Assembly (NCBI GenBank): GCA_000182565.2
Contig: KQ257461.1
DNA length: 64,000 nt
Origin: Spizellomyces punctatus DAOM BR117
Lineage: Eukaryota
Reading direction: 5' to 3' (one strand)
Of the stretch, positions 13,945 through 41,902 are shown piece after piece (the stretch's first letter is position 1; each line of letters starts with the position of its first letter). Below the pieces are notes generated by a model. It saw only the letters and a program-made list of their open reading frames with translations, did not search any database and was not told where the DNA came from. A program made the position numbers and the translations under genes.

Positions 13945-14033
13945 CGATCACATATTCGATAGTGCGGAGCCGATGGGTATTGGCACTAGCACCCGCACCA
14001 GGGATTGAACCGGCGACAACCAGTTCGGAAAAG
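13945..14033 (-). ncRNA. Fanzor omegaRNA: ~74-nt scaffold (14033-13960) plus flank-derived guide TCGAATATGTGATCG (13959-13945)
   Basis: Begins ~15 nt after the Fanzor stop and overlaps the right TIR. The sequence TTTTCCGAACTGGTTGTCGCCGGTTCAATCCCTGGTGCGGGTGCTAGTGCCAATACCCATCGGCTCCGCACTA closely resembles my recollection of the SpuFz1 scaffold. Exact RNA ends are inferred. Confidence 0.85.
13960..13989. repeat. Right terminal inverted repeat of the Fanzor element (includes terminal TA)
   Basis: TAGTGCGGAGCCGATGGGTATTGGCACTAG; inverted match to 41873-41902 with one mismatch. Confidence 0.93.
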
Positions 14034-14047
14034 GTAATCTAACTAAT

Positions 14048-14112
14048 CTACGCTACGGCTGGAACACCCCTGCTGAACACTTTTGGTCTACCGTGTCCAT
14101 CTAACATTGATT
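14048..14112 (-). pseudogene. Detached C-terminal codons of the Fanzor ORF
   Basis: Joined to 39921 across GATT, it reads ...WNRDMLSTCNMLMIMK-SMLDGHGRPKVFSRGVPAVA*, with the TAG at 14050-14048. Confidence 0.9.
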
Positions 14113-14717
14113 TGTAGCGAACGACTCTGATAAACCGGTTCGCTCTGTAGCGAACGACTCTGATAAACCGGTTCGCTTAAAGGCATCAGGTGACCATGAT
14201 TGAGGTTTCCGCAATTGCAACCTAAGCTTCGAAACCCCTGAGATCAAGCTCGGTTCTGGGCTACACCAGCGCAGCGCAAAGGATACGTTACACAGCCATG
14301 ATTGATCATGGCGATGGTCCGAGATGGGAAGATCGGACGCTGCCACCCTAATGAAGGCTATGGAAACTAGTGTAGATGTTACCATAGCATATTCTTGTAT
14401 AAAAAGAGGAATTCAATAAAATAAGTCAGCGGGCAGAAGCCGTAGCGACACAAAATCCCCATAACTCACTTCTCAACTCCAATCTTAGGTTAACAGGAAC
14501 CTAACAGAGCGCTTCAATGGCCTGATCACCCATACCGAAGCCTCTAAATCCTGCTCGGTTCACGACTAACCGACTCTCCTTGCCTCTCACCCTCAAGTCG
14601 CTACCGACGCCCAAAGAAAGGATTTGGAGACTACGATTCCTAGTACGGACACCCATACAACCTGCTAGGAGACCCAAGTTGTCTTTACCGTAGTCTACCA
14701 ACAAAAAATCCATTACA
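14113..14717 (+). repeat. LTR-A (5' of A1), first 33 bp tandemly duplicated
   Basis: TGTAGCGAACGAC...CCATTACA, with TATAAAA and AATAAA inside. Homologous to 22735-23306, 31410-31981 and 39348-39920. Confidence 0.92.
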
Positions 14718-14728
14718 TGGTGGAGAAG
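14718..14728 (+). promoter_or_regulatory. Primer-binding site, tRNA-Ala-like (TGGTGGAGA)
   Basis: Immediately follows the LTR terminal CA. Complementary to the ...TCTCCACCA 3' end typical of tRNA-Ala. The same site occurs in copy A2 at 31401-31409 (-). Confidence 0.7.
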
Positions 14729-14871
14729 TGCGACGAACTGCCTTCCCCTCTCAAATTCAGCTGAAAACCTTATTCGGTCGTACCGAAACTCTTGCACAAA
14801 CCGAGATCCGCTCAGGTAGCTACTCGGAAACCTTTTCTCTCGTTTCGGAAACAGACTTCACGAAACCGAGA

Positions 14872-17800
14872 ATGATGCCGGTCGAACGCTCTCCAACGCG
14901 AGGCTGCTCACCTGTGATCCAGACTCGTAGTCAGGGTCCTGCGGAGGACGTTGAAGTCCCTCCCGCAACATGCCCAAGGCGTTCAGGGACCACTTCCGTC
15001 GAACCGGAAGCCCCTAACTTGGCCACGATGGCCTCTGAAGTGGCAGCATTAAAAGAAGACATTGCCCGCTCGACTGCTGCAATGCAGTTGGCAACTCAAA
15101 ATCTTACGGAACAGCTTCATAGGCTTTCCGAACGTCAGACAGCGGCGGATGAGCGCCTCGCACGAGCCTTAGAAGCCCTAGTGCATCGCCCGCTGCCTGA
15201 ACAACCTCTCATAGCACGAGCTACAAGAGAACGGTCCGCAACCCCGTGGGAAACGTCGGACACACCAAGGGAGCATACCGAACCAAGTTTTTCAGGTCCG
15301 GTGCCTCCAATCCAAGTGCCAGCGGCCCCGTGGGCCAGCGACACCAAGGTCGATTCCTTGAAAGCAAAGGACGTACCCGAGTTTACGGGCAAAAGAAACC
15401 AAGACATTGAAGAATGGCTCAACAAAGTCCAACTTCTTCAAAATGTTAGCGCAATGTCGGATGCCAGGATGGTACAGCTCCTACCAGCCATGATAGCCGA
15501 GAAAACCCCTGCCGACGCTTGGTTTTACACTCTGGAAGCCCAGGAAACTCGCTCGTGGACCTGGAAAAGGTGGAAAGAAGAACTGCTTCGAGAGTTCCGA
15601 GATCCCCTAACCGAGTCCAAGCGCAAAACCGAATATGTGTGCTGCCATGCAAACCCCAAAGAATTTCGCAGCTTTCTCGCGTTCATTGACCACAAAACTC
15701 ATCTCCGGCGCCTCGCATACGGCGACCGGGCAAACATAGAATGTCCTGCTGACCAGCATTTTGACCTAATAGTTGAACAATTGCCCAGCGACATCCAAAT
15801 CATGGTCAAATCCTGTAATGTCATGAACCTGACCAAATTAAAAGACTTCCTGCGCCTTTATTTCAGCTCTGATGACACCAGAAAATGAGACCCTTGCTAC
15901 AGCGGTGCTGCAGAAGCTCAGAAGAAGTCACAAAAGACCGGAACTGACAAAGGCCCTAAGCAGACGGCTCAACATAAAACTGGAAACCCCGAAAAGGGTT
16001 GCGACGGCCCTCAGAAGATGGTTCTGGACCCCAACACAGAACCACCGGCACCCTGCAAATTCTGTCAGAAAAAGCATTGGAATGTTTTCTGCTGGCAGAA
16101 CCCGAACCGAAAAGATCCTGAAGATGGAAAGAAGGGACCATACGGAGCACCCATGCCCGCAGGTTGGAAACCCAAACAGGAGTCCAAGAAGTCGTACATA
16201 GTGGAGCTGGACTCGACGTCCGCTACCACCGAGACTCTTTTTTCGGCTTCGGAACTGGAAAGGACAGCCGCCGCTAATCAAGGATTCCACACCATCGGAT
16301 TCTTTCATTCACCCGAGCACTCGGAATCAACAATTTTGATGACCGCACCTCTTTCCGAGGTCACGGTGACCAAGGAAGAGGACCCCCACATGCCCACGCA
16401 GGGCTGGGACCAAGTCTGGGACAACATAGCCATCATCTGGGGCACCCCGCAAGTGGCTCTGATGATGGGCAACAACCCCCGCGCGCTCAGCTTCTTCGCC
16501 AAAGAACCGAAGCGAGGCGCCGGGCACCTCGGGAACAACCCCTACGCAGTTGTGTGGAGTTCCCACCACCTCTACATCGCTGCCGCAGCCAAAGCTGACA
16601 AGGATCGAATCCTGCGAAAAGTCCGAGAAGACAGTACCCCTTGTTTGATCCTCCTTGCCTGGATAAGGCTCGACGAGCATGAGAAATTCTTGATGTGGAG
16701 CTCCGAAGATCCTGTTATCTTTGATTCTTACGCCAACCTGCAACTGGTGGCATTTCTCCTGACAGGCAATATCATTCGCTCAGACTATTATTATCATCAC
16801 AGAAACCCCAAATTTCTGCACGTTAAAGACCATCCACGTCTCCAAAGACATGAAGAGAGCGAACGGACGTGTATAGTCATGCTGGCTATCGAACAAGTTG
16901 CTCGCCAGAATAAAACAACAAAACCACAAAATGACAAATCTAGAGAGCACTTTGAGAGTGCGATCAAGGCTACGGAAGCAACAAGTAACGACATCGCGCC
17001 CCATTTCGAGGTCATGGTGCCTTCCATCAATGCCTTCTACTCGGTAGATTTAGGCGATGTACTCAAAAGCCAGACCAAGACCCAAACGCAGCCTTGCTGG
17101 ACGCTAGCCGTCATCGCTCAGCTCTGGGCACCTGTGGTACTAGACACAGGAGCCTGCGAGTCTCTGGTTTCCGACACGTACCAGGGCCTTCTGTTCTCCG
17201 AAACTGATTTGCAGGATGCGGAAACGATGGCTTTCAAAGGCATTGGTGGACGTATCTCATCTACCAAGACAGTATGCCTCAAAACTTCCCTCAGAGGCCG
17301 CGGAGGAGAATACCTGACTTTCCGCGCCTATTTCCGAGTCATTGCATACGGGAAACCTCTCATCATCCTAGCCAATGACGTTCTGGGACATCTGAAACTC
17401 CAAACCTTGGTTCAGGAACCCCCATTACCCAGTTTCGTGGTGATGCTCAAGAATCCGGACATCCTTATCCCTTGCTCCATAACAGATGAGCTGGACACCG
17501 ATCACATGCGCAGCATGCCATACAAGACCAAGCAGGGTGAATTCATGAAGGATGCATCAATGCCACGGCTGACCAAAGCCAAAGCTCAGAAGTCTAGATT
17601 AACCATGTTAATCATGGGACAGACGCGCGTGGCAGCCCAAACTTTTCTCATCAAAAACCCTCTTGACGCCACCGCTGCTAGCTCAACGGTCCTGTTAGGC
17701 CTCAAACTGTCCACCGCGACCCATAATTCGGTTGCGGACCCCGAAGAGAACATTTCCAAAGAAGAATGGCAGACACTTCGGAACAAATGGAACCTCGACT

Positions 17801-20800
17801 CTACGGAGAGGGCTCCAGGGGCCTTCGAAGCCCAATTAAAAGACGCGGAACGTTTCCACGTCGATCTCAAGCGACCCAAACCCATGGTCTGGGCCCTAAT
17901 CAACATTCTACGACACTTCCATCAAGCCTTCAGCTATGAGGGTCATCTCATAGGGAACTACACCAAGATTCCTTATGCGCCTCGATTTATCTCGGCTCTG
18001 CCACCCCTTTCGAGGCCACGGTCATACTCTCCGTTGGAGCGGACAGCCCTCGAGACGGAGCGAGACACCATGATGGGGCTTCAGAGGTGGAACGAACCAC
18101 CGAAGTAACCTTCGCCAGCGATCCTGTTATCATTCGCTATGCAGACAAACCCCCGCGCATAGCCTTCGACTATCGCCGAGCCAACGACTGCATGGCCTGG
18201 GATCCATATCCCTTTCCCATCATGCTCGACATCCTGAACTGGATCGTCGCAGTCCCATTGCGATACATATCGGGAGGTGACGCAAACAAAGGATTCTACC
18301 AAATTGCCATCACCAATGCGTCGGTATGCAAATGGCTCGCGCTCAGACTCCATGACGGCATCTACGAACCACTCTTTATGCCCTTCGGACCCAAGACTGC
18401 CCCCTCGCACTTCTGTCAGGTGATGGACGACACCTTGGGTCCCTCCAAATGGCAAAATATCAACAACTTCGTCGACGATATCCACACACGAGCGGAGACA
18501 GCCGCGGAAGCCCTAGACGCCATTGCAGACTGGCTCGACCGCTTTTCCAGAGCCAAACTCACCCTAAGACTCGACAAGTGTCAATGGCTCTTTCACCAGC
18601 TCACGGCCCTCGGTTTCGTTGCCTCCTCTCAGGGTCTCGCTACTGATCCAGACAAGGTCGCAACCATAGTCGATTGGCCACGACCCAAATTCATAGGTGA
18701 CCTATGGTCATTCGTGGGTCTCCTAGGGTTCTATGCCCAATTCATTTCTCGCTACGCGGAACTCGTCCGACCCCTGCAAGACGCTATCCAAGAGGGCGTT
18801 CGCGAATACCGAGACCTTAAAAAGGGTCGCACTGACCCGAAGAAAGGCACTGAAAAGCTCAATTCACCATCCATGCTCGACACGGCGGTGGCCCCTACAA
18901 TCACAGCCACCGGAGCCTGATTTGAGGTTTCGCAACATCCGAAATCTAGCTCCTCAGACCTACCGGTGGTCAATCTACGCCAATCATCGCTGGCGGACTT
19001 ACCCATTGACCCCTTTTGTGTCGGACGCCTTGCTTGCAAGCGCCCCGACCAAGGTCTGCACAGATTTATCGCGAAGCGTGAAGTTTCATGGACCGATTCC
19101 CAAAACTCTGCCTTCGCAGCCGCCAAGCAGGCTCTGACAACAGCTCCAGTGCTCGCGGCACCCAGAAAAGGGTTCCCCTACACCCTTCACAGTGACGCTT
19201 CCTACACAGCGTTTAATGTCACGCTCGAACAGTTACAGCCAGATGCTTCTAAACGCCCGCTGTGCTACCATTCCTGAGGCACCACCACCTCGGAAAAGAA
19301 GGCCCCCCCTGTCAAACTCAAGGCCGGATGCCTCATTTGGGGCCTCGGAAAACTCCGCCCATACCTTGAAGGCCTGCCTTTCACGGTCATTACTGATCAC
19401 CGAGCTCTTTTGTGGCTCGCTAAATACAAAGGCGAGAACCGTAAGCTTCTCCGCTGGGCCCTCGATCTTAGTTACTGGTCTGAATGGATGACAATCATTC
19501 ACAAACCAGGACGTTTTCACATTGTTGCTGATACACTTTCATGGCTACTAGGAGCGGAAACCCTACTCTGCTCCACCGCGACCCAAATATGGGTGTCGAA
19601 ACGCGGAAGACGATGGCTGCGCACCACACCAGCTGCTCTCGCACCTTCCTCGACACTGGCAGATGCCGTCTTTCGTCTGGCCTTACAGCCTGCACTCATT
19701 GCCGCCATCCGCGCTGGCCTCACCGGCCAGCTCCACCCCATAGCCCAACAGGCCCGCACGCTCCTATGGGAGACCAGCCCCAACACCTACACTACAGCCG
19801 ATGCGCACTTTCTTCAGGACTGGCAATGTGCAGATAACCTGCTGTGGCACCGTTTTTCAGTCTCCGAAGACCTTTGGTGCCTCTACGTGCCCCCTGCTTG
19901 CACCCCCAAGGTGCGCAAGCTTTTTCACGAGGGGGGAGGACACTTCGGATTCGAAAGAACCTACGCCAGAGCCACAGCACAAGTCTGGTGGCCAAAGATG
20001 GCACAAGATTTCAGAAAACATTGCGCAGGATGTGAAACCTGCCAACGCTCAAAAAGGGTACCGCAACTGATTCCGGGGTTGTTGAAACCCATACCACCAG
20101 CTCCGGGACGCTGGACAGTCATCACGACTGACTTCGTAACCAAGCTCCCACTTACTTCCAGAGGGTACGATGCCTTTTGGCTAATAGCTTGTAAATGCTC
20201 AAAGAGGATCCACATATGGCCCCTCAAGAGCACCGCGACAGCTACTCAGGTCGCAGAACTATTTATAGAATGCTACATCCCATTGCACGGCATTCTGGAG
20301 ACTATTATCTCAGACCATGACTCCATCATTGAAAGGCTGTCAGAAACCAGAAATGCAGATGTGGAAGAGCTCTGTAAACATCTCGGAGACCTAAACATCC
20401 TTATCCGAGATCTGATGATTGAGGCCCAGGATTCACAGAAAAGATATGTGACAGAATTCTTCTGTCAGTGCTATGGTTATACTGGTTAGATGTGGTTCCA
20501 AACTAGTGGTCACATGACTTTGCTGATGGTGTCAACATTCATTTGACCAGAATTAGATAAATAAGCAGATTTAGCCATTTCTGGCTAAATTAGATGAGTA
20601 TCCTGACACACTAGCATCTGCCCCTTTCAATCAAGTGGCACAGTGTATTTAGGATGACTTGTCTCACTTGTGATTGGCTATAAATGGTGCAATAGGCTGA
20701 CAAATAGTTTAGGATGACATGTACAAGATCTGATTGGTTGCAAATGGTGCAATAGGCTGACAAATAGTTTAGGATGACATGTACAAGATCTGATTGGTTG

Positions 20801-22677
20801 CAAATGGTGCAATAGGCTGACAAATAGTTTAGGATGACATGTATGAGTTCTGATTGGTTGCAAATGGTGCAATAGGCTGACAAATAGTTTAGGATGATGT
20901 GGGTGAGATCTGATTGGGTAGTTAGGATATAGCATTTGTCAGCCCCTTTGTCTATAAAAAGAGGACCTCTCTGAGGCCCCTCAAAGGAAAATAACAAGTA
21001 GTAACCAAGTCTTCCCTAGTTTTCTGTTGTCTTCTTGTCCCTGCTAGCCTGTTACAAGATACTATGATTTATCACAACAACATTTGGAGTTCCGGAGAGG
21101 AGATAAGGTGCTTCTGAGCATGAAAAACCCAGCAGGGTATGAGTCCAAGATCACTCCAAAATGGCTGGGACCAGTCACAGTGACTGACTGTAACCTTCTC
21201 TGTGACAACTACGAGTGAAAACTGCCAGATAAGATGAGATGACTTCATCCATGGTTTCACATATTGAAATTATGTCCATACCAGAAGCCTGTCGATGCCG
21301 AAACTGAGGAAAGGATCGCGGAAGCACAAATGGAGGATTCCGACACTTCAAAAGGCGAGTTCGAAGTGGAAGCGATAGTAGACCATCGAACCAGGCGCAG
21401 AAAGCGTCAATTTCGAATACGTTGGGCCGGATACCCACCCCATGAGGATACCTGGGAACCAGAGGAAGCCCTAACAGAGGCTTCCGAAGCCTTAGAAGAG
21501 TACTGGAGATCCAGAGCTCCCACTAGCGCACTAGTAGAGGACTCCTTGGTAGTCAGCTTTGCAGGCGATGCCCTGGCTTACACTTCCGACCACCAATGCT
21601 TCACAATTTATCCGGACAATAGCTCACGTGATAATCACGCCCTCTCACCAGAANNNNNNNNNNNNNNNNNNNNNNNNNNNNNNNNNNNNNNNNNNNNNNN
21701 NNNNNNNNNNNNNNNNNNNNNNNNNNNNNNNNNNNNNNNNNNNNNNNNNNNNNNNNNNNNNNNNNNNNNNNNNNNNNNNNNNNNNNNNNNNNNNNNNNNN
21801 NNNNNNNNNNNNNNNNNNNNNNNNNNNNNNNNNNNNNNNNNNNNNNNNNNNNNNNNNNNNNNNNNNNNNNNNNNNNNNNNNNNNNNNNNNNNNNNNNNNN
21901 NNNNNNNNNNNNNNNNNNNNNNNNNNNNNNNNNNNNNTACCCTTGAGGAAGGCTATCCCTGGTCAGAAGTAAGCGACGCTTCGCTGCCGAGACTCTATCG
22001 AGCGGCTCGGAGCAGCTATGGCCACCTGGGTCGAAGTTTGGATTCGTGAGCTGTTCGAAGACCCAAACAAACCCCTCGAACACTATCATGGTGAAGATTG
22101 GGTGGTTGACGGGGCTTCGAAGCTGTACGCCACGAGCCAGCCCCTCACGATGCATATTGCGGAGCCCTACAGTAGGGCTTCCGACGGCGGTCAAGCAGCT
22201 GTCGGTATCGTCGCTGATGCAAAAAAGATCGGGAAGAGATTACGGGACGTACCCTGCGCCGCCTGGCTTGATGCTGGGGTCCCTCAACATGCGGCCGGAA
22301 ACCCCAAAACGGCCCGCTTCACCCTCTGGCCTGATCGCGAGGCCCACGATTTTGCGGACATAGCCATCGAAGCCGCGAGAGCAGTGTTGTTAAAGCTAGC
22401 CAACGCAGCTGAAACCACAGAAGAGCAGCTCCGTCCCAAACATCGGGAGCACGCCTATTACCACTTTCGAGCGGTTAACTTGAAAAGGGCCGCAGAGACG
22501 TTCACAGCCCTCTACGTAACCCGAGCCAACGGTTCCAGGACACCTGGAACCCTGGCTCCGGAAGCCACTGACCAAATTTGGTTCTGCGCAAACATCATGG
22601 GGCGCACTACCATAATCTGGATGATCAACGAAGACAGCCTTGAAGCTGACGATGACTATCCAGTTGCGTCATGGTAG
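14872..22677 (+). pseudogene. Family A gag-pol (Gag, CCHC knuckle, Dam-like insert, aspartic protease, RT, RNase H, partial integrase, chromodomain, C-terminal extra domain), disrupted
   Basis: Motifs CKFCQKKHWNVFC, VLDTGA, FDYRRAN, PFGPKTAP, FVDD, LHSDAS, H..GGHFG..C..C, TDFV and EVEAIVDHR...RWAGY...DTWEP. Stops at 15886, 18918 and 19275, a 1-bp frameshift near 18092, and an LTR-B insertion. Confidence 0.88.
20447..21056 (+). mobile_element. Solo LTR of family B (610 bp) in the A1 integrase region
   Basis: TGTGACAG...GTTACA flanked by a 5-bp AGATA duplication; internal 60-bp tandem repeats. Confidence 0.92.
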
Positions 22678-22734
22678 AAGCGAGGTTCGGGCACTCACAG
22701 ATGAGTCGCCGAACCTTCTTTTTCGAAGGGGGGA

Positions 22735-23306
22735 TGTAGTGAACGACTCTGATAAACCGGTTCGCTCAAAGGCATCAGGTGACCACGATTGAGGTTTCCG
22801 CAATTGTAACCTAAGCTTCGAAACCCCTAAGATCAAGCTCGGTTCTGGGCTACACCAGCGCAGCATGAAGGATACGTTACGCAGCCATGATCAATCATGG
22901 CGATGGTCCGAGATGGGAAGATCGGATGCCGCCACCCTAATGAAGGCTACGGAAACTAGTGTAGACGTTACCGTAGCATATTCTTGTATAAAAAGAGGAA
23001 TTCAATAAAATAAGTCGGCGGCCAGAAGCCGTAGCGACATTAAATCCCCACAACTAGCTTCTCAACTCCAATCTTAGGTTAACAGGAACCTAACAGAGCG
23101 CTTCAATGGCCTGATCACCCGCACTGAAGCCTCTAAATCCTGCTCGGTTCATGACTAACCGACTCTCCTTGCCTCTCACCCTCAAGTCGCTACCGACGCC
23201 CAAAGAAAGGATTTGGAGACTATGATTCCTAGTACGGACACCCACACAACCTGCTAGGAGACCCAAGTTGTCTTTACCGTAGTCTACCAACAAAAAATCT
23301 GTTACA
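22735..23306 (+). repeat. LTR-A (3' of A1), preceded by PPT GAAGGGGGGA
   Basis: Homologous to 14146-14717; followed by CTGG. Confidence 0.92.
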
Positions 23307-31981: not shown

Positions 31982-32320
31982 CCAGAATCCCAGAGAACCC
32001 CAGAAACCCAGAAAATCGCAGGACCCCTGAGAACCCCAGAATCCCAGAGAACCCCAGAAACCCAGAGAATCCCAGAACCCCAGAGAACCCCAGAACCCCA
32101 GAGAACCCCAGAATCCCAGAGAACCCCAGAACTCCAGAGAACCCAAGAACTCCAGAGAACCCAAGAACCCCAGAGAACCCAAGAACTCCAGAGAACCCAA
32201 GAACCCCAGAGAACCCCAGAACCCCAGAGAACCCAAGAACCCCAGAGAACCCCAGAACCCCAGAGAACCCTAGAACCCCAGAAAACCCAGGAACCCCAGA
32301 GAACCCCAGAACCCCAGACC
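31982..32320 (+). repeat. 18-bp coding tandem repeat (CCAGAACCCCAGAGAACC; PEPQRT), about 19 units; continues at 23307-23363 on the opposite strand
   Basis: Directly visible. Confidence 0.9.
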
Positions 32321-35300
32321 ACCCAGGCCACCTACCAAGAAAGCAAGATCCATGTAGTAGAGGTGGCTCCATACTCTTTAAGTACCCCCAAAGGGCCAAG
32401 GATTCCCCGGAGTCACTTGCTGACTGTGCAAGGTAGAATCCAAGGAATCCCAGTAACCATTCTCCTGGATAATGGGGCAAACCAACTCTATGTGTCACAG
32501 TCCTTTGTCAAGAAGGCACAACTGGTGACTCATTCTCTCCCTGGAGCAGAAATCTCTATGGCTGATGACAGAAAGCACCAAGAAATAGGCTTTGTCAAAG
32601 GTCTTCAGTACTCAGTAGGAACCTACACAGAACAGTCAGACTTTATAGTAGCCCCAATCAAGTTTGACTTGATCCTGGGTATACCTTGGTTTGCCTGGAG
32701 GAATCCCAGTATCAACCACAACAAGAACACTGTGACCTTCACCACCTCCCAGCACCCCAGAGTCAGATGGTTTGTTAAGCAGGCCAGCTCTTCCAACAAA
32801 TCCCAGAAGTCCAATCTTATCACCATGGTATCAGCAAAGATGTTGGTCAGAACACTGAAGAAGAGGACAGCAACAGCTTTTGCTGTGTATCTCAAGAACC
32901 CTCAAGATACCAGCACCCCTCCAGACACCATGGATTCCAAAGTCACCAAGCTTCTTGAAAACTATCAAGATGTCTTTGTGGAAGAGCTTCCCCCAGGACT
33001 TCCCCCTGAGAGAACAGTGGATCACAGAATTGAACTCAGTGCCCCCAACCAGACCCCCTGGAGACCAACCTACCACCTCTCTTCTTTGGAGTTAGAAGAA
33101 CTGAGGAAGCAGCTGTCTGAACTTCTGGAGGCAGGCCACATCAGACCATCCAAGAGCCCCTTTGGAGCACCCATCCTCTTTGTCAAGAAGAAAGAAGGGT
33201 CTTTGAGGATGTGTGTGGACTACAGGGCTCTGAATAAAATCACCATCAAGAGCAGATATCCCCTCCCTAGGATTGATGAGCTGATGGACAGACTGAATGG
33301 AGCCCAGGTCTTTACCAAGCTGGATCTCAAGTCAGGCTACTACCAGATCAGGATCCACCCAGAAGACATCCCCAAGACAGCTTTCAGAACCAGATATGGT
33401 CACTTTGAGTTCCTGGTCATGTCCTTTGGAATGACCAATGCCCCAGCCACTTTCATGACTTTGATGAATGATGTTCTAAGACCCTTCTTGGACATCTTTG
33501 TTATTGTCTACCTAGATGACATCCTCATCTACTCCAAGACCCCAGAAGATCACCTGGACCACCTCAAGCAGGTTCTGCAAGCCCTCAGGCAGAACAAGCT
33601 GTATGCCAACCCCAGCAAGTGCCAGTTCTTCAAGCAAGAAGTAGAGTTTCTTGGCCATGTAGTCTCACATGAAGGAGTCAGGCTTGACCCCAAGAAAGTG
33701 CAGACTGTTCAAGAATGGCCCACCCCTCAGAGCGTCACTGAAGTCAGACAGTTCATGGGCCTGGTGAACTACTTCCATAGCTTTCTGAAGGACCTGGCAG
33801 AGCAAGCTGCACCATTGACAGACCTGTTGAGAAATGACAAGCCCTGGACCTGGTCTGAACCTCAGGAGAAAGCTTTTCAGCAGCTGAAGGATATGGTCAC
33901 CAAAGCCCCTGTACTCAGACCCTTTGACCCAGCCTTGCCTACCACTGTCTTCCCTGATGCCTCAGGCTATGCAGTTGGAGCATGGCTTGGACAGGATGAT
34001 GGGAAAGGCATGAGACCAGTTGCCTACCACTCCAGGAAGATGGCTCCAGCAGAGACCAGATATGACACCAGACAACAAGAGCTGTTAGCCATCCATGATG
34101 CCCTCAGAGTTTGGAGGCCCTACCTGGAAGGAACCCCCTTCAAAGTTATCTCAGACCACCAGTCCCTCAAGTGGCTACAGAACCAGCCCTTCTTGACCAG
34201 AAGACAAGCCAGATGGGTCATGAATTTCCAATCTTTTGACTTTGAGATTGGCTATGGCCCAGGAAGACTCCACACAGTGGCAGACATCCTGTCTAGAAGA
34301 CCAGACCTGGCCCCAAGATGCATCAAGTGCAAGGCCTTGGTGACAGCAGAGTTGAATGCTGTGACCCACACCACCAGCACCCTTCAAGAGAGATTGAAGA
34401 CCAGTACCACAGAAGACCCAGAACTTCAAGAGCTCATCCAAGCTTTGGATGACCCCAGGAGACCAGAAGACCAGCAACAAAGGCTCAAATACCTCAGCCA
34501 TCAAGATGGGTTACTCTATTTCCAGGACAGGATTTTTGTTCCTAGTGACCCAGACCTAAGGTTGAGCCTACTCCAAGAAACCCATGACACTCAGTATGCT
34601 GGACACTTTGGCATCACCAAGACCCATGATGCCCTAGCAAGGCATTACTACTGGCCAAGGATGTACAAGGACATTACGAAGTATGTCAAGTCTTGTGATT
34701 CCTGCCAGAGAAGCAAACCTAGTCAGCAACCACCAGCAGGCTTGCTGCAGCCCCTCCCAGTACCTAAGACCAGATGGAGCCAGATTTCCATTGACCTGAT
34801 CCCTGACCTACCTGTGACTTCCTCTGATCACAATGCCATCTTTGTCATTGTTGACAGATTGTCAAAGAGAGGCCACTTCATCCCTACCACCACCAGAGCC
34901 TCAGCCAAGGACCTGGCCCTGCTCTTCTTGAAGCACATCTTCAAGCACCATGGCCTCCCAGAAGTGATTGTATCTGATAGAGACACCAAGTTCACCAGTT
35001 CATTCTGGTCCAACTTGATGCAACTCTTAGGCTGCAACACCCTCCTAGCCACTGCAAGGCACCAGCAGACCAATGGACAGGCAGAGAGAACCATCAAGAC
35101 TTTGAAGATCTACCTGAGAGCTTTCCTGCAGTACAACATGAAGAATTGGGAAGATCTTGTACCCTTTGCTGAGTTTGCCTACAACAACAGTATCTCAGAA
35201 ACCACAGGCTTTACCCCATTCTACTTAGAGAATGGCCAGCATCCCAGGACCCCAGCAACACCACCAGGAGAAAGCAATGATCCTGAAGCAACAGACTTCC

Positions 35301-35607
35301 ACCAGTATATTCAGCAACTGCTTCAAGTAGCCAAGGATAACATGATACTGGCCCAAGAAAGACAAGTTCAGCAAGCCAACAAGTCTCTCAGCAAGGCCCC
35401 AAGCTACCCCTTAGGCTCCAAAGTTTGGCTATCTAGAGAAGGTATCACCCCAGAAGAAGAAGCCCAGAGGCCAGCCCAGAAACTTCTTCACCCCTGGCTT
35501 GGACCTTACAGAATCAAGGCCAAGGATGAATTTCAGAATTACACCCTGGAGCTCCCCAGCACCATGAAGATTCATCCAGTGTTCCATGTGAGACTCCTCA
35601 AGCCTTA
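31982..35607 (+). CDS. Family B Pol (PEPQRT repeat, protease, RT, RNase H, integrase, SH3-like), open frame, 3'-truncated
   Basis: Motifs [63 protein letters not shown] and HPVFHV. Confidence 0.92.
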
Positions 35608-38600
35608 CTTACCCATTGACCCCTTTTGTGTCGGATGCCTTGCTTGCAAGCGCCCGGACCAAGGTCTGTGCAGATTTATTGTGAAGCGTGAAGTTTCATG
35701 GACTGATTCCCGAAACTCTGCCTTCGCAGCCGCCAAGCAGGCTCTGACAACAGCTCCAGTGCTTGTGGCACCCAGAAAAGGGTTCCCCTACACCCTTCAC
35801 AGTGACGCTTCCTACACAGCATTTAATGTCATGCTCGAACAGTTACAGCCAGATGCTTCTAACCGCCCGCTGTGCTACCATTCTCGAGGCACCACCACCT
35901 CAGAAAAAAAGGCCCCCCCCGTCAAACTCGAGGCCGGATGCCTCATTTGGGGCCTTGGAAAACTCTGCCCATACCTCGAAGGCCTGCCTTTCACAGTCAT
36001 TACTGATCACCAAGCTCTTTTGTGGCTCACTAAATACAAAGGCGAGAACCATAAGCTTCTCTGCTGGGCCCTCGATCTTAGTTACTGGTCTGAATGGATG
36101 ACAATCATTCACAAACCAGGATGTTTTCACATTGTCGCTGATACACTTTCATGGCTACTAGGAGCAGAAACCCTACTCTGCTCCACCGCAACCCAAATAT
36201 GGGTGGCGGAACGCGGAAGACGATGGCTGCGCACCACACCAGCGGCTCTCGCACCTTCCTTGACACTGGCAGATGCCGTCTTTTGTCTGGCCTTACAGCC
36301 TGCACTCATTGCCGCCATCTGCGCTGGCCTCACTGGCCAGCTCTACCCCATAGCCCAACAGGCCCGCATGCTCCTATGGGAGACCAGCCCTGACACCTAC
36401 ACTACAGCCAACGCGCGCTTTCTTCAGGAGTGGCAATGTGCAGATAACCTGCTGTGGCACCGTTTTTCAGTCTCCGAAGACCTTTGGTGCCTCTACGTGC
36501 CCCCTGCTTGCACCCCCAAGGTGCGCAAGCTTTTTCACGAGGGGGGAGGACACTTCGGATTCGAAAGAACCTACGCCAGAGCCACAGCACAAGTCTGGTG
36601 GCCAAAGATGGCACAAGATTTCAGAAAACATTGCACAGGATATGAAACCTGCCAATGCTCAAAAAGGGTACCGCAACTGATTCTGGGGTTGCTGAAACCC
36701 ATACCACCAGCTCTGGGATGCTGGACAGTCATCATGACTGACTTTGTAACCAAGCTCCCACTTACTTCCAGAGGGTATGATGCCTTTTGGCTAATAGCTT
36801 GTAAATGCTCAAAGAGGATCCACGTATGGCCCCTCAAGAGCACCGCGACAGCTACTCAGGTCGCAGAACTATTTATAGAATGCTACATCCCATTGCACAG
36901 CATTCCGGAGACTATTATCTCAGACCATGACTCCATCATTGAAAGGCCGTCAGAAACCAGAAATGCAGATGTGGAAGAGCTCTGTAAACATCTCGGAGAC
37001 CTAAACATCCTTATCCGAGATCTGATGATTGAGGCCCAGGATTCACAGAAAAGATATGTGACAGAATTCTTCTGTCAGTGCTATGGTTATACTGGTTAGA
37101 TGTGGTTCCAAACTAGTGGTCACATGACTTTGCTGATGGTGTCAACATTCATTTGACCAGAATTAGATAAATAAGCAGATTTAGCCATTTCTGGCTAAAT
37201 TAGATGAGTATCCTGACACACTAGCATCTGCCCCTTTCAATCAAGTGGCACAGTGTATTTAGGATGACTTGTCTCACTTGTGATTGGCTATAAATGGTGC
37301 AATAGGCTGACAAATAGTTTAGGATGACATGTACAAGATCTGATTGGTTGCAAATGGTGCAATAGGCTGACAAATAGTTTAGGATGACATGTACAAGATC
37401 TGATTGGTTGCAAATGGTGCAATAGGCTGACAAATAGTTTAGGATGACATGTATGAGTTCTGATTGGTTGCAAATGGTGCAATAGGCTGACAAATAGTTT
37501 AGGATGATGTGGGTGAGATCTGATTGGGTAGTTAGGATATAGCATTTGTCAGCCCCTTTGTCTATAAAAAGAGGACCTCTCTGAGGCCCCTCAAAGGAAA
37601 ATAACAAGTAGTAACCAAGTCTTCCCTAGTTTTCTGTTGTCTTCTTGTCCCTGCTAGCCTGTTACAAGATACTATGATTTATCACAACAACATTTGGAGT
37701 TCCAGAGAGGAGATAAGGTGCTTCTGAGCATGAAAAACCTAGCAGGGTATGAGTCCAAGATCACTCCAAAATGGCTGGGACCAGTCACAGTGACTGACTG
37801 TAACCTTCTCTGTGACAACTATGAGTTAAAACTGCCAGATAAGATGAGATGACTTCATCCATGGTTTCACATATTGAAATTATGTCCATACCAGAAGCCT
37901 GTCAATGGCGAAACTGAGGAAAAAGTCACGGAAGCACAAATGGAGAATTCCGACACTCCAGAAGGTGAGTTCAAAGTGGAAGCAATAGTAGACCATCGAA
38001 CCAGGTGTGGAAAGCATCAATTTCGAATACATTGGGCTGGATACCCACCCCATGAGGATACCTGGGAACCAGAGGAAGCCCTAACAGAGGCTTCCAAAGC
38101 CTTAGAAGAGTACTGGAGATCCAGAGCTCCCACTAGTGCACTAGTAGAGGACTCCTTGGTAGTCAGCTTTGCAGGCGATGCCCCAGCTTATGCTTCTGAC
38201 CACCAATGCTTCGTGGTTTATCCAGACAATAGCTCACATGATAATCATGCCCTCTCACCAGAATGAAAACCAGCTTCATGTGGCTTACCTCACCAGTCGA
38301 GAATGCCACACCAAGCCTCCCGATCATGCTTATGTGTGTCCGAGCTGTCAAAATCAGCTGGTGATGACCTTAAAAGGATGCCCCTGCTTGCCCCCCCTCT
38401 TTTTTCTTCTTCAACTACTGACAACCTACTTCCCTTACAGACCTACTCTGCCTCGCAAACCTTTTCTATTGACACCAAAACAAAAGCTTTCATTTCCAAC
38501 ACCATGACCACCAATATCCGATGACAACAAGGAGTCAGCATCCTCTCTACCCTTGAGGAAGGCTATCCCTGGTCAGAAGTAAGCGATGCCTTTGCTGCCG

Positions 38601-39920
38601 AGAACTCTATTGAGCGGCTCGGAGCAGCTATGGCCACCTGGGTCAAAGTTTGGATTCATGAGTTGTACGAAGACCCAAACAAACCTCTTGAACACTATCG
38701 TGGTGAAGATTGGGTGGTTGACGGGGCTTCGAAGCCATACGCCACAAGCCAGCCCCTCATGATGCATATTGCAGAGCCCTACAGTAGGGCTTCCGATGGT
38801 GGTCAAGCAGCTGTCGGTATCATTGCCAATGCAAAAACAATAGGGAAGAGATTACGGGATGTACCCTGCGCTGCCTGGCTTGATGCTGGGGTCCCTCAAC
38901 ATGTGGCTGGAAACCCCAAAATGGCCCGCTTCACCCTCTGGCCCGATTGCGAAGCCCATGATTTTGCAGAGATAGCCATCGAAGCCACGAGAGCAGTGTT
39001 GTTAAAGCTAGCCAATGCAGCTGAAACCACAGAAGAGCAGCTCCATCCCAAACATCGGGAGCACTCCTATTACCACTTTCAAGCGGTTAACTTGAAAAGG
39101 GCCGCAGAGATGTTCACAGCCCTTTATGTAACCCAAGCCAATGGTTCCAAGACCCCTGGAACCCCAGCTCCGGAAGCCACTGACCAAATTTGGTTCTGCG
39201 CAAACATCATGGGGCGCACTACCATAATCTGGACAATCAACGAAGACAGCTTTGAAGCTGATGACAACTATCCAGTTGTGTCATGGTAGAGACAAGGTCT
39301 CAAACACTTGCATGCAAGTTGCTGAACCTTCTTTTTCGAAGGGGGAATGTAGCGAATGACTCTGATAAACCGGTTCGCTCAAAGGCATCAGGTGACCATG
39401 ATTGAGGTTTCCGCAATTGTAACCTGAGCTTCGAAACCCCTGAGATCAAGTTTGGTTCTGGGCTACACCAGTGCAGCACAAAGGATATGTTACGCAGTCA
39501 TAATTGATCATGGCAATGATCAGAAATGGGAATATTGGATGCCGCCACCCTAATGAAGGTTACAGAGACTAGTGTAGATGTTACCATAGCATATTCTTGT
39601 ATAAAACAACAAATTCAATAAAATAAGTCATGGGCAGAAGCCATAGTGACACTAAATCCCCAAGAAACTAGCTTCTCAACTCCAATCTTAGGTTAACAGG
39701 AACCTAACAGAGTGCTTCAACGGCCTGATCACCCACACTGAAGCCTCTAAATCCTGCTCGGTTCACAACTAACTGATTCTCCTTGCCTCTCGCCCCCAAT
39801 TCGCTACCGATGCCCAAAGAAAGGATTCGGAGACTATGATTCCTAGTACGGACACCCACATAACCTGCTAGGAGACCCAAGTTGGCTTTACCATAGTCTA
39901 CCAACAAAAAATCCGCTACA
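35608..39920 (+). mobile_element. 3' part of family A copy A2: duplicated RH-IN segment (35608-37056), LTR-B (37057-37666), chromodomain, extra domain, PPT and 3' LTR-A (39348-39920)
   Basis: 35608-37056 is nearly identical to 27134-25686. LTR-B is flanked by AGATA. LTR-A ends CTACA and is followed by GATT. Confidence 0.9.
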
Positions 39921-41737
39921 GATTTCATGATCATCAGCATGTTGCAGGTGCTCAGCATGTCCCTGTTCCAGTAGCACATCGTCCAGGCTTGCTGACAGTT
40001 AGGGTTGGTACAACCCAGCAATCCATGGACTTTTTCAATCTTGCCTTTGCAATGGCACCAAGGTCTTGAATGAGGTCATGTTTTGAAGCCTTTTTCAAGG
40101 AAGTCAGCAGATGAGGCCAAACAGTGAGGGCAGGCAGATGAGGTCTTGTACTTGTCAAGAAGGAAGCAGTTGATCCTGTTGCGCTTAAAGAGGGTGCACC
40201 AACCTTTCATCTTTGATGAGGTCTGAAATCTTGCAGTTCAACCAGCATCACTCCAATCACCCATCACAATGGTGAAGTTCCCAAACTTGTTGCGCATGTT
40301 GGATATGAGGTTTGATTCACTCTTCTGACAGTTTATAAATGCATGCCACTTCCACTGTGTGTGGGCAGGATGTGAGTAGAACTCCTTTCAACAATCTGAA
40401 TCTGCACGGCAAATGAGAAGGTAGTGAGTAAAGTCCATGAGGTTCATTGTCTTGTGAGATGGTATTCATGATTCTATGAGGTCAATACCGCCGGCTTTCA
40501 TCTGCTGCCATTCTTTTGCAAATCGACAGCTTCCAGTCTCCACGGCTCACTGGTTGGCAGTGTAGTGAAATGTCGTGCCATTACTGTCTTGGCAGTAGAG
40601 AATGTCATGCTTGTTTGGGTCGATAATGATGACATTCTCTGCTGCTCAACAAGCAGGCAAGTTGTTCTCCACATATACTGCCTTCACCTCAGCTTCTAGG
40701 GTCTTTGCTGACTTCTTCCCTCCACTGCTGTGCTTTCCATACTTGTCAGCTTCAGGATGTTTCAAGTAAACTGACACTGAGGTGCCATCCATCGTGATCG
40801 AGCCTTCAAACTGCATATCACAGCAAGACCGAAAAGCCTTGGTACATAGATTGCAGATGCGCATCCATAAATCGACCTTCTCTATGGCTTGTGCTTCTTG
40901 GCGGGTGATGCAGAGGATGTGGGCATAGAGAATGACCATGTTGATGCAAATATGGGACTGAATCAGTGACTGATGAAGAGGGATTGCACTGAACCATCGA
41001 AATCCATGCTTTTCATATAGGCTTGACAACTGACAGTAGGCAGGGATAAAGGACATTGGATCCATGACAACTGCATAGGTGAGTGGATGGTCAACAAGAA
41101 AAGGCAGATCAAGTGACCAAATCTCTTCTAGAAGTTCACTCTCTTCAGCAGTTAAGTCATTGAGTGACTTGGGCACAATATCAAAAAGGAAAATTGACTT
41201 CAAGTAGCAAAGACGAGCAAAGAAAGTGTTTCACGCATCACTTTTCAGTCACTGCTTCTGTCCCTTCACATCAAGCCACAGATTAATGTACTGAAGGAGC
41301 ATCTGCATGAAATGCTCTTGAACATTGACTTTCAGGTTCATCATCATACTTGCTGTCAGGTAATTGACTGATTGCTGCTCACCTTGTAGATTTGGGTGAG
41401 CAAAGCCAATGATTTGGCAGTACCATTGAACATATGGCAGCAAACAATCCCGCCATGCCTTCTTTGCTTCCTTTCTTGGATGCCAAGCCTCCCCCTTGTT
41501 GAGAAGATAGAGAATCGCTTCGATGGTCTCCTCATTCACAGTGAAGGTTGGTGCAGATAGGATGTAGAATTTGAGAGCATGGGAAGCATGGTTGGTGAGT
41601 TGATGGATGATGGTGATGTAATCTAGAAGCCGTTGGTGATAGTTTGGCAGGAAAGCTTTTGCAAAGGAAGTCTTGTTGCAGGTATGTAAGGTGGGTTTGT
41701 CGAGTTTTTCAAGCTTTTGCTTCTTTTTTGGTGGCAT
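39921..41737 (-). pseudogene. Fanzor1 (TnpB-family RNA-guided endonuclease) ORF body, inactivated
   Basis: Starts MPPKKKQKLEKLDKPTLHTCNKTSFAKAFLPN. Contains SITMDGTSVSV, RuvC-I VIIIDPNK (D at ~40620), IVMGDWS, RuvC-II LLDKYKTS (E to K), a Zn-finger Cys pair CTNPNC and RuvC-III WNRD. Several in-frame TGA stops. Confidence 0.93.
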
Positions 41738-41872
41738 TGATGATATCTGTGGGAAAAGATGAAAGCCTGGGAAAATGGGCAACGACAACTTATATAGGAT
41801 TTTTTGGATCAAACCATAGTTCATGAGTCTAAATCGAGTAAAATTATGATTAAATTGGTTGGAATCTATGTA

Positions 41873-41902
41873 CTAGTGCCAATACCAATCGGCTCCGCAC
41901 TA
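41873..41902. repeat. Left terminal inverted repeat of the Fanzor element; the minus strand reads CATA (41904-41901) at the boundary
   Basis: CTAGTGCCAATACCAATCGGCTCCGCACTA followed by TG. Confidence 0.93.

What the first reader, a model, noticed from the sequence alone, without database searches (positions are those of the whole stretch)
13960..41902. Complete Fanzor RNA-guided nuclease transposon hidden by a 25.8-kb retrotransposon nest
Seen: the decayed TnpB-like ORF at 41737-39921 (-) stops at an LTR end followed by GATT. 26 kb away, the first LTR is preceded by GATT, and beyond it the frame resumes (SMLDGHGRPKVFSRGVPAVA*). 30-bp TIRs (29/30) ending in TA bound both ends. Removing 14113-39920 and one GATT leaves ~2.1 kb. 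Known: Fanzor1 proteins are eukaryotic RNA-guided nucleases, and SpuFz1 sits in a TIR element of this type, so the system class is described. This split copy would be missed by searches that look next to the ORF.
Basis: partly seen in the sequence, partly recalled or inferred. Interest (0 to 1): 0.9.

Follow-up and report, generated by a model that had tools for sequence, protein, structure and literature searches.

The report
Dead Fanzor transposon split by retrotransposons
This is a mutated, non-functional copy of the already well-studied SPu-1/SpuFz1 Fanzor transposon of the chytrid fungus Spizellomyces punctatus, cut in two by a 25.8-kb pile of Ty3/Gypsy retrotransposons, and loci of this kind have already been reported for this genome.

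Summary
30-nt inverted repeats (29 of 30) at 13960-13989 and 41873-41902 bound one SPu-1 element. Its Fanzor1 reading frame (41737-39921, minus strand) is interrupted 20 codons before its stop by 25,808 bp of Ty3/Gypsy sequence flanked by a GATT duplication. In-silico excision gives 2,131 bp and a 625-codon frame whose tail matches paralogue C-termini (19 of 20). A paralogue contig from a public run continues past 14112 with letters 26 of 30 identical to 39925-39954.

It is not a working nuclease. It has 8 in-frame TGA stops, catalytic E541 is changed to K, and 36 of 39 arginine losses are CpG-deamination types.

The flanking genes are identical to SPPG_06453 and SPPG_06460. The window is therefore S. 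punctatus DAOM BR117, the genome in which Bao and Jurka (2013) defined SPu-1. Saito et al. (2023) counted 42 Fz loci there, including loci with Gypsy/Ty3 inserted in the Fz gene.

The insert is two Ty3 families plus a probable inversion, and it holds two assembly gaps. The kind is already known and the interest is low. One detail is worth noting: CpG decay stops exactly at the insertion point, so the severed 153-bp ωRNA end is undecayed.

The parts
13945..13959 (-). Predicted 14-15-nt guide of this copy's ωRNA (unique flank just beyond the right-end inverted repeat)
   Evidence: Position inferred from Saito 2023, section 7: the ωRNA is a 75-nt scaffold ending at the 3' inverted repeat plus a 14-15-nt variable extension. 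Expression from this locus is not shown.
13960..13989 (.). Right-end (3') 30-nt inverted repeat, ending in TA
   Evidence: 29 of 30 against the reverse complement of 41873-41902.
13960..14034 (-). Predicted 75-nt ωRNA scaffold, undecayed (6 CpG kept)
   Evidence: [quoted passage not shown] It folds into two hairpins, the second with an 8-nt loop: -30.1 kcal/mol, z = -2.55. DNA reads of an independent run pile up about 48-fold over single-copy depth at 13964-14107.
14048..14112 (-). Last 20 codons and TAG stop of the Fanzor1 frame (severed C-terminal tail)
   Evidence: 19 of 20 identical to the P0002 C-terminus. TAG is at 14050-14048.
14109..14112 (.). GATT, left copy of the target-site duplication of the Ty3 insertion
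14113..14145 (+). 33-bp extra copy of the LTR start (block S1)
   Evidence: The first 32 nt are identical to 14146-14177 (family D9). Origin unexplained; possibly a scar of the inversion.
14146..23306 (+). Block A: complete chromodomain-bearing Ty3/Gypsy element (572-bp LTRs, RT, integrase, chromodomain). CpG-rich. Contains gap 21654-21937.
   Evidence: LTR pair 94.6% identical, or 98.2% without CpG-type changes. Pfam RVT_1, Integrase_H2C2 and Chromo. CpG o/e 0.79-0.96.
23307..25075 (-). Block D': 5' part (leader, gag-like ORF, start of the proline-rich repeat array) of a second Ty3 family, inverted. Contains gap 23821-24211.
   Evidence: Inverted match to the repeat array at 32057-32120 (I25). 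CTGG at 23307 is the reverse complement of CCAG at 31982. CpG o/e 0.00-0.02.
25076..31981 (-). Block B: inverted copy of the first family, from its 5' LTR to the position equivalent to 21056
   Evidence: 94.8% over 6,913 bp to 14146-21056. 99.85% over 2,060 bp to 35607-37666.
31982..35606 (+). Block D: protease-RT-RNase H-integrase of the second Ty3 family. Open frame, almost CpG-free.
   Evidence: Pfam RVP_2, RVT_1, RT_RNaseH, Integrase_H2C2, rve and SH3_Tf2-1 in ORF 31880-37099. Only 28-30% amino-acid identity to block A pol. 4 CpG in 3,625 bp.
35607..39920 (+). Block C: 3' part of a first-family element, with 3' LTR at 39348-39920
   Evidence: 96.4% and 90.5% to 18997-23306. Its LTR is closest to the LTR of block B: 17 non-CpG differences.
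39921..39924 (.). GATT, right copy of the target-site duplication
39921..41737 (-). Main part of the Fanzor1 pseudogene (605 codons, 8 TGA stops, E541K)
   Evidence: phmmer against the PDB: 8GKH SpuFz1, E = 0, 1,073 bits, query 2-604. 498 of 621 aligned residues identical to P0003. CpG o/e 0.09-0.48.
41738..41872 (-). 5' untranslated part of the element
   Evidence: Lies between the left-end inverted repeat and the ATG at 41737.
41873..41902 (.). Left-end (5') 30-nt inverted repeat, ending in TA
41903..41904 (-). CA immediately upstream of the 5' inverted repeat. With the terminal TA it spells CATA, the SpuFz1 target-adjacent motif.
   Evidence: The window reads TG at 41903-41904 on the + strand. 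The conserved CA and the CATA motif are from Saito 2023, sections 7 and 8.

Best explanation
This is a full-length but dead copy of the SPu-1 transposon of Spizellomyces punctatus DAOM BR117. SPu-1 is the element that encodes the RNA-guided nuclease SpuFz1 (Fanzor1).

Proposed history:
1. The element inserted at a TA. Its left end abuts CA, which gives the CATA motif.
2. Later a chromodomain-type Ty3/Gypsy retrotransposon integrated into codon 606 of the Fz frame and duplicated GATT.
3. That retrotransposon then acquired a segment of a second Ty3 family and a further copy of its own family.
4. The array was rearranged, most economically by one inversion between two oppositely oriented 5' LTRs. 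The result is a 25.8-kb insert.
5. The Fz coding part, the older retrotransposon blocks and about 1 kb of the right flank then lost most CpGs by C-to-T transitions. This is the signature of 5-methylcytosine deamination. It produced 8 CGA-to-TGA stops and the catalytic E541K change.

The 153-bp right end (coding tail, ωRNA scaffold, inverted repeat) lies on the other side of the insert and escaped this decay.

Shown: the anatomy, the homology, the colinearity, the mutation spectrum and the species. Inferred: the order of events, the inversion, and methylation as the cause.
For: Homology:
- 8GKH SpuFz1 scores E = 0 and 1,073 bits over query residues 2-604. Parasitella Fanzor 1 scores 1.3e-31.
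- 30 database relatives were found: 17 named S. punctatus DAOM BR117 (best 79% identity), 4 Fimicolochytrium jonesii, 9 unnamed.

Anatomy:
- Inverted repeats 29 of 30. GATT on both sides.
- The rejoined element is 2,131 bp. Published sizes are about 2.1 kb (Saito 2023; Bao and Jurka 2013, passage).
- The tail is 19 of 20 identical to the P0002 C-terminus.
- CA lies upstream of the 5' inverted repeat, as published.

Colinearity in other copies:
- One contig of run X1 matches up to 14112. It then continues with 30 letters of which 26 equal window 39925-39954 (compared by eye).
- 7 raw DNA reads of run X18 show the same first 8 letters, with one difference.

Decay:
- All 8 premature stops are TGA at SpuFz1 arginine positions. 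36 of 39 arginine losses are R to C, H, Q, W or stop. E541 is AAG after GAC. D383, N385 and D606 are kept.
- CpG o/e is 0.09-0.48 along the ORF, against 0.91 in the left fragment and 0.98 in the left flank.
- 5mC is 'confined to transposons' in Spizellomyces (PMC12695648, section 9, passages read).

Species and single locus:
- 534 of 534 residues identical to SPPG_06453. The match to SPPG_06460 is identical except for one unspliced 22-residue stretch (evidently an intron) and the ORF end.
- The 'palustris' orthologues g08381 and g08385 are each recorded on a contig of 20,456 bp.

Insert:
- Block alignments, Pfam domains, two families with 28-30% pol identity.
- CCAG/CTGG junctions.
- The LTR of block B is nearest the LTR of block C (17 non-CpG differences). 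The two LTRs of block A are nearest each other (10). The other four pairs show 17-26.
Against: - Two N runs lie inside the insert, so its internal order and the physical linkage depend on scaffolding.
- Among the 8 contig pieces shown, none bridges 14112/14113 (67 pieces were not shown). The junction is supported there only by continuous raw-read depth (26-68 against about 18 in the single-copy flank) and by the absence of any reported joint.
- Simple reciprocal recombination does not explain the 33-bp extra LTR start (14113-14145). It also does not explain the 2,060-bp inverted duplication at 99.85% identity (25076-27135 and 35607-37666). That duplication could be gene conversion or an assembly artefact.
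- The CCAG/CTGG match lies in a repeat array where CCAG recurs, so it is weak on its own.
- The strong CpG contrast between the two Fz halves could in principle mean different histories.
- Methylation of this locus was not measured here.
Confidence: 0.92

Rival explanations
1. The two halves belong to different SPu-1 copies, or to different loci, and were brought together by scaffolding across the gaps or by ectopic recombination between retrotransposons.
For: Two N runs lie inside the insert. The two halves differ sharply in CpG decay, 0.91 against 0.09-0.48. No bridging contig appears among the 8 pieces shown.
Against: The same 4-bp GATT sits at both outer LTR ends, and the reading frame continues exactly into a paralogue-like tail (19 of 20). 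That would require two independent insertions at the same nucleotide of two copies. The unique flanking genes on the two sides are neighbours in a sister species: g08381 and g08385, each recorded on a contig of 20,456 bp. The CpG contrast follows a regional gradient that also covers the retrotransposon blocks and the right flank.
Confidence: 0.04
2. The copy is still a working or recoverable Fanzor system that was merely hidden by the insert. This is the sense of 'complete' in the first reader's title.
For: Both inverted repeats, the full ORF length without frameshift, the Zn-finger cysteines, D383, D606, the TAM-reading residues R96, Q129, Q130, N133, R291 and Y345, and the ωRNA region are all present.
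Against: There are 8 in-frame TGA stops and E541K in the RuvC triad. RNA- or DNA-contacting arginines R157, R260, R268, R407, R420 and R481 are changed. The ORF is physically split by 25.8 kb. No locus-specific RNA was seen.
Confidence: 0.02
3. The eight TGA codons are read as a sense codon (recoding) rather than being decay.
For: All 8 internal stops are TGA, none is TAA or TAG, and the frame is otherwise uninterrupted.
Against: Each TGA sits where SpuFz1 has arginine. The TGAs are part of 36 CGN-to-TGN or CAN changes at arginine codons, with a general excess of TpG+CpA (o/e 1.5-1.7) and loss of CpG. The flanking genes of the same window translate with the standard code, 534 of 534 identical to the database protein.
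Confidence: 0.01

Closest known systems
SPu-1 / SpuFz1 (Fanzor1) elements of Spizellomyces punctatus DAOM BR117 (Bao and Jurka 2013, PMC3627910; Saito et al. 2023, PMC10432273; PDB 8GKH)
   Same: Same genome. 30-nt inverted repeats with terminal TA and CA upstream of the left end. About 2.1 kb after excision. A single ORF colinear with SpuFz1 over its whole length (80% identity). An 88-nt stretch between the stop and the element end that holds the ωRNA scaffold.
   Different: 8 TGA stops, E541K and many CpG-type substitutions. The ORF is split 20 codons before the stop by 25.8 kb of Ty3/Gypsy sequence.
The 11 Fz loci with extra genes between the inverted repeats, 'including Gypsy/Ty3 inserted ... 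in the Fz gene' (Saito et al. 2023, section 7)
   Same: Exactly this architecture: Ty3/Gypsy inside an inverted-repeat-bounded Fz locus of this genome.
   Different: I could not tell whether this locus is one of the 11, because Supplementary Data 1 and 2 could not be opened. The paper's main text does not describe the internal structure of such inserts or the CpG decay.
Ghost Spu-1 elements (134 loci with ωRNA but no Fz gene; Saito et al. 2023)
   Same: The severed 153-bp right end is, like a ghost locus, an ωRNA scaffold with its own flanking guide and no usable Fz gene beside it.
   Different: Its inverted repeat is of the Fz type (29 of 30 to its partner), not the ghost type, which differs at seven positions. 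It arose by interruption, not by internal deletion. Its predicted second hairpin has the canonical 8-nt loop. Expression was not shown.
Ty3/Gypsy chromoviruses and nested or rearranged LTR-retrotransposon arrays
   Same: 572-bp LTRs with TG...CA ends, a 4-bp target duplication, a polypurine tract before the 3' LTR, RT-RNase H-integrase-chromodomain order, and insertion of elements into one another.
   Different: Nothing unusual for the class, apart from the unexplained 33-bp LTR-start duplicate and the near-identical 2,060-bp inverted duplication.

Membership tests
Fanzor1 / SPu-1 element | Full-length sequence homology to SpuFz1 | tested here: met
   phmmer against the PDB: 8GKH, E = 0, 1,073 bits, query 2-604. 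498 of 621 aligned residues identical to P0003 (SPPG_07727, 638 aa).
Fanzor1 / SPu-1 element | RuvC catalytic residues D383, E541, D606 (SpuFz1 numbering, Saito 2023) | tested here: not met
   D383 and D606 are kept. E541 is K (AAG). The homology is not in doubt, so this marks a dead member and does not argue against membership by descent.
Fanzor1 / SPu-1 element | [TS][TS]-x-x-C4 zinc finger followed by RD (Bao and Jurka 2013 motif) | tested here: met
   The alignment shows KTSSACPHC, GLLGCTNPNC and WNRD aligned to the SpuFz1 motifs.
Fanzor1 / SPu-1 element | Uninterrupted ORF | tested here: not met
   8 in-frame TGA stops and a 25.8-kb insertion.
Fanzor1 / SPu-1 element | 30-nt terminal inverted repeats, TA ends, CA upstream of the 5' repeat, about 2.1 kb | tested here: met
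   29 of 30. TA at both ends and TG (= CA on the minus strand) at 41903-41904. 2,131 bp after excision. Published features read.
Fanzor1 / SPu-1 element | [quoted passage not shown] | tested here: inconclusive
   88 nt lie between the stop and the element end. The fold has two hairpins, one with an 8-nt loop, z = -2.55. The region is family-conserved in DNA reads. No reference ωRNA sequence was available for alignment. The abundant RNA in run X17 comes from other loci: 14,729 of 17,298 laid reads are only 90-95% alike. It carries G at 14038 in 7,533 of 7,632 RNA reads, against 26 of 493 DNA reads.
Ty3/Gypsy LTR retrotransposon (the insert) | Direct LTRs with TG...CA ends and a short target-site duplication | tested here: met
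   Four 572-573-bp LTR copies. GATT at the outer ends.
Ty3/Gypsy LTR retrotransposon (the insert) | Protease-RT-RNase H-integrase order (integrase after RT) | tested here: met
   Pfam on ORF 31880-37099: RVP_2 at 187-291, RVT_1 at 435-594, RT_RNaseH at 683-786, Integrase_H2C2 at 890-948, rve at 971-1054. Chromo domain in ORF 21264-22049.
Ty3/Gypsy LTR retrotransposon (the insert) | Primer-binding site and polypurine tract | tested here: inconclusive
   TGG... follows the 5' LTRs, and a purine run (GAAGGGGGGA or GAAGGGGGAA) precedes the 3' LTRs. No tRNA match was tested.

The most novel reading that the evidence does not exclude
The Ty3 insertion turned the severed 153-bp right end into a stand-alone, undecayed ωRNA gene, in effect a ghost locus made by interruption. 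Fz proteins from the intact copies could still load this ωRNA and direct it against the empty allele: CATA followed by the sequence at 13959-13945. In this reading the exact coincidence of the CpG-decay boundary with the insertion point also shows that 5mC-driven decay in this chytrid is set by the local repeat context after the split, and that it spares short transposon fragments.
Probability: 0.15. Interest if true: 0.35.

Novelty: already known. Interest (0 to 1): 0.15.

Why it matters
It matters little for discovery. SpuFz1 is the best-characterised Fanzor. Its element family was defined in this very genome, and Ty3-interrupted Fz loci there are in print.

The locus is still a tidy worked example of three things:
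- How a retrotransposon pile can separate a Fanzor gene from its ωRNA end.
- How CpG-to-TpG decay, consistent with the transposon-confined 5mC reported for Spizellomyces, kills such a copy through CGA-to-TGA stops.
- How sharply that decay can be bounded. Such a boundary could serve as a natural marker for the extent of methylated domains in a chytrid.

Tried and rejected
Searches and look-ups that gave nothing:
- Pfam-A gave no meaningful hit for the pseudogene (only DUF7537, E = 0.14). It also gave none for the intact paralogues P0003 and P0001.
- Rfam found nothing in 13700-14200 at E up to 1. In 13900-14112 at E up to 10 it found only a chance CRISPR-DR15 match at E = 1.1.
- ARAGORN found no tRNA in 13800-14200. 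I ran it because the scaffold contains a T-arm-like GGTTCAATCC.
- Exact look-ups of four window ORFs were not in the collection.
- No whole genome is held for the window.

Sequencing runs:
- No RNA holder was listed by the run search.
- Run X22 laid 0 records.
- I found no evidence that this locus's own ωRNA is expressed. The RNA pile-up at 13988-14059 comes from other loci.

Ideas considered and dropped:
- TGA recoding: see the rival explanations.
- Selection on the ωRNA as the reason the left fragment kept its CpGs: 3 of the 9 kept CpGs lie in the coding tail outside the scaffold, and the left flank is equally undecayed. A regional explanation fits better.
- A simple nest of successive insertions: two blocks are inverted, and the second-family segment has no LTRs at its borders.
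- Testing the inversion by reading gag-pol continuity across the rejoined second-family halves: the gag-like ORF ends at 23514, before the junction, so the test carries no information.
- The second-family remnant at 52-56 kb could not serve as a reference for that junction, because an N run (54093-54192) sits at the equivalent place.


Full report
**Observation.**
The window has two 30-nt inverted repeats, at 13960-13989 and 41873-41902. They agree at 29 of 30 positions and both end in TA. No other match to either repeat occurs in the 64 kb at up to 7 substitutions.

On the minus strand an ATG at 41737 opens a single frame of 605 codons with 8 stops. That frame runs to 39921. There it meets the end of an LTR (...CGCTACA at 39920) followed by GATT. 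At the other side the first LTR (TGTAGCG... at 14113) is preceded by GATT.

Removing 14113-39920 and one GATT in a script leaves 2,131 bp. The frame then continues for 20 codons to TAG at 14050-14048. That 20-residue tail is 19 of 20 identical to the C-terminus of the intact paralogue P0002. It is also close to the C-termini of P0001, P0003 and P0004. The description is correct at the stated coordinates and far beyond chance.

**What the split gene is.**
- The read-through translation (X at stops) matches the cryo-EM construct of Spizellomyces punctatus Fanzor 1 (8GKH) with E = 0 and 1,073 bits over residues 2-604. It matches Parasitella parasitica Fanzor 1 at 1.3e-31.
- The large protein collection returned 30 relatives: 17 named S. 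punctatus DAOM BR117 (best 79% identity), 4 Fimicolochytrium jonesii and 9 unnamed.
- Pfam-A in the copy on hand gives nothing for this copy and nothing for the intact P0003 and P0001 either. That check is therefore uninformative.

**Colinearity with intact copies.**
- A global alignment to SpuFz1 (P0003, 638 aa) has 621 aligned positions with 498 identical. The only gaps are short and in frame.
- Independent support comes from public runs laid on 13700-14400. DNA reads of run X18 pile up on 13964-14107 at about 48 times the single-copy depth, as expected for a repeat family.
- One contig of run X1 that matches up to 14112 continues with 30 letters. Of these, 26 equal window 39925-39954 (compared by eye). 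Seven X18 reads show the same first eight letters with one difference.
- So in other copies the sequence left of 14112 runs straight into what here lies 25.8 kb away.

**Species and locus.**
- The ORF at 8661-10262 is 534 of 534 identical to SPPG_06453.
- The ORF at 46807-49875 equals the Nup120/160 protein SPPG_06460, except for one unspliced 22-residue stretch (evidently an intron) and the ORF end.
- Both proteins are from S. punctatus DAOM BR117 and are recorded on a contig of 964,001 bp.
- Their orthologues in Spizellomyces sp. 'palustris' (g08381 and g08385, 91% and 89% identical) are each recorded on a contig of 20,456 bp, presumably the same one. Here the two genes are 36.5 kb apart, and 27.9 kb of that is the element with its insert.
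- This argues that both halves lie at one locus and that the insertions are lineage-specific. That is an inference, because I could not read the 'palustris' DNA.

**State of the gene.**
- It is dead. All 8 premature stops are TGA, and each sits where SpuFz1 has arginine.
- Of the 56 SpuFz1 arginines that align, 17 are kept. 36 are changed to C, H, Q, W or stop, with codons TGY, CAY, CAR, TGG or TGA. 3 are changed otherwise.
- Catalytic E541 is K. The codon is AAG after GAC, which is again a CpG-type change.
- D383, N385, D606, the zinc-finger cysteines, the RD motif and the TAM-contacting residues are kept.
- Nucleic-acid-contacting arginines R157, R260, R268, R407, R420 and R481 are lost.
- CpG observed/expected is 0.09-0.48 along the ORF, with TpG+CpA at 1.5-1.7.
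- This is the signature of 5-methylcytosine deamination. 5mC is reported as 'confined to transposons' in Spizellomyces (PMC12695648, section 9; passages read). Methylation of this locus was not measured here.

**The element ends and the ωRNA.**
Saito et al. 2023 (PMC10432273; sections 7 and 8 read) describe:
- 30-nt inverted repeats;
- a conserved CA upstream of the 5' repeat;
- a CATA target-adjacent motif;

Here CA lies at 41904-41903 on the minus strand. With the terminal TA it spells CATA. 88 nt separate the stop from the element end. The predicted scaffold (14034-13960) plus guide (13959-13945) folds into two hairpins, the second with an 8-nt loop: -30.1 kcal/mol, z = -2.55. That matches the paper's description of the canonical form.

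By analogy with TnpB homing, the empty site (left flank ending CA, then TA, then the right flank) would carry CATA directly before the guide match. This is inference.

The Ty3 insertion lies 64 nt upstream of the stop. The ωRNA region is therefore not split; it is separated from the gene.

**RNA evidence.**
- RNA reads of run X17 are very deep at 13988-14059, up to 15,752. Their first mates lie on the minus strand, while first mates over the LTR lie on the plus strand.
- However, 14,729 of the 17,298 laid reads are only 90-95% alike.
- They diverge from this copy outside 13996-14041.
- They carry letters that are rare among the DNA copies: G at 14038 in 7,533 of 7,632 RNA reads, against 26 of 493 DNA reads.
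- They therefore come from a few other loci. Nothing shows expression of this copy.

**The insert.**
It is not a simple nest. Its blocks are:
- S1: a 33-bp extra LTR start (14113-14145).
- A: a complete chromodomain-type Ty3/Gypsy element (14146-23306) with 572-bp LTRs, CpG-rich.
- D': the inverted 5' part of a second Ty3 family (23307-25075).
- B: an inverted first-family copy, from its 5' LTR to the position equivalent to 21056 (25076-31981).
- D: protease-RT-RNase H-integrase of the second family (31982-35606). It has only 28-30% amino-acid identity to block A pol and 4 CpG in 3,625 bp. Its frame is nevertheless open and fused in frame to the next block.
- C: the 3' part of a first-family element, ending with the LTR at 39348-39920.

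Several facts point to a specific history:
- The outer end of the 3' LTR of A abuts CTGG. The outer end of the LTR of B abuts CCAG, its reverse complement. Both lie in the same proline-rich repeat array.
- After CpG-type changes are removed, the two LTRs of A are closest to each other (10 differences). The LTR of B is closest to that of C (17 differences). The other four pairs show 17-26.

The most economical history is as follows. An old first-family element X inserted into Fz and made the GATT duplication. X came to hold a second-family segment. A younger first-family element Y inserted into that segment in reverse orientation and made the CCAG duplication. An inversion between the starts of the two oppositely oriented 5' LTRs then produced the present order. 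I give this about 0.55.

Three things remain unexplained:
- the 33-bp S1 block;
- the lack of LTRs at the borders of the second-family segment;
- the 2,060-bp inverted duplication at 99.85% identity (25076-27135 and 35607-37666). That could be gene conversion or an assembly artefact.

Two N runs (21654-21937 and 23821-24211) lie inside the insert.

**A sharp decay boundary.**
- The left Fz fragment (153 bp) keeps 9 CpGs, o/e 0.91. Six are in the scaffold and three are in the coding tail.
- The first 200 bp on the other side of the insert has one CpG, o/e 0.09.
- In the ORF, 10 CGN arginine codons are kept against 36 lost.
- Decay also covers blocks B and C (0.41-0.56) and the first kilobase of the right flank (0.59). 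It does not cover block A (0.79-0.96) or the left flank (0.98).
- Most decay therefore happened after the split and is regional.
- Selection on the ωRNA is not needed to explain the kept CpGs, because the coding tail kept its CpGs too.

**Comparison with what is known.**
- SPu-1 was defined in this genome as about 2,100 bp with 33-bp inverted repeats and putative TA duplications, in 17 full-length copies (Bao and Jurka 2013, PMC3627910; passage read).
- Saito et al. searched the same genome by inverted repeats. [quoted passage not shown]
- So the kind of locus, and the search strategy that finds it, are in print. Only their supplementary tables, which I could not open, can say whether this very locus is listed.
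- A full-text search for Spizellomyces with CpG and deamination gave 3 papers. By their listed titles and abstract starts, none is about Fanzor pseudogenes. I read passages of only one of them, PMC12695648.

**Verdict.**
This is a dead member of a known family in the genome where that family was defined. Interest is 0.15.

Noticed in passing
window 31982-35606 and 23307-25075: A second Ty3/Gypsy family is almost free of CpG: 4 CpG in 3,625 bp, and 1 in the 1,378 non-gap bp of the inverted part. Its protease-RT-RNase H-integrase frame nevertheless stays open for over 1,200 codons. This looks like a lineage that lost CpGs while still under selection, not a randomly decayed copy.
   Followed up: partly
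window 31925-32361: An 18-bp tandem array encodes a proline/glutamate/arginine-rich repeat (PEPQRT-like) at the start of the second family's pol frame. Its inverted counterpart lies at 23307-23361.
   Followed up: no
window 25076-27135 and 35607-37666: A 2,060-bp inverted duplication at 99.85% identity lies inside the insert. The blocks around it are only 94-96% alike. It could be gene conversion between inverted repeats or an assembly artefact near the gaps.
   Followed up: partly
window about 51500-56000: Another retrotransposon remnant lies here: Retrotrans_gag at 1.8e-13 and Ty3_capsid at 1.6e-07, in frame 3 with stops read as X. CpG o/e is 0.02, there is a 100-N gap at 54093-54192, and stretches resemble the gag-like part at 23307-25075.
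   Followed up: partly
window 41903-42900: The first kilobase of unique DNA to the right of the element is also CpG-depleted (o/e 0.59, TpG+CpA 1.34). The next kilobase is 0.85, and the left flank is 0.98. This looks like spreading of the decay domain beyond the transposon.
   Followed up: no
window 13988-14059 (reads of run X17): A very abundant RNA, depth up to 15,752, shares only a 46-nt core (13996-14041) with this copy. It carries variants present in about 5% of the DNA copies. It probably comes from a few highly expressed ghost-type or other-subfamily ωRNA loci elsewhere in the genome.
   Followed up: partly
window 46807-49878 and 8661-10265: The flanking host genes are the nucleoporin Nup120/160 (SPPG_06460) and a FAR1-domain protein (SPPG_06453). 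Both are CpG-normal and intact.
   Followed up: yes
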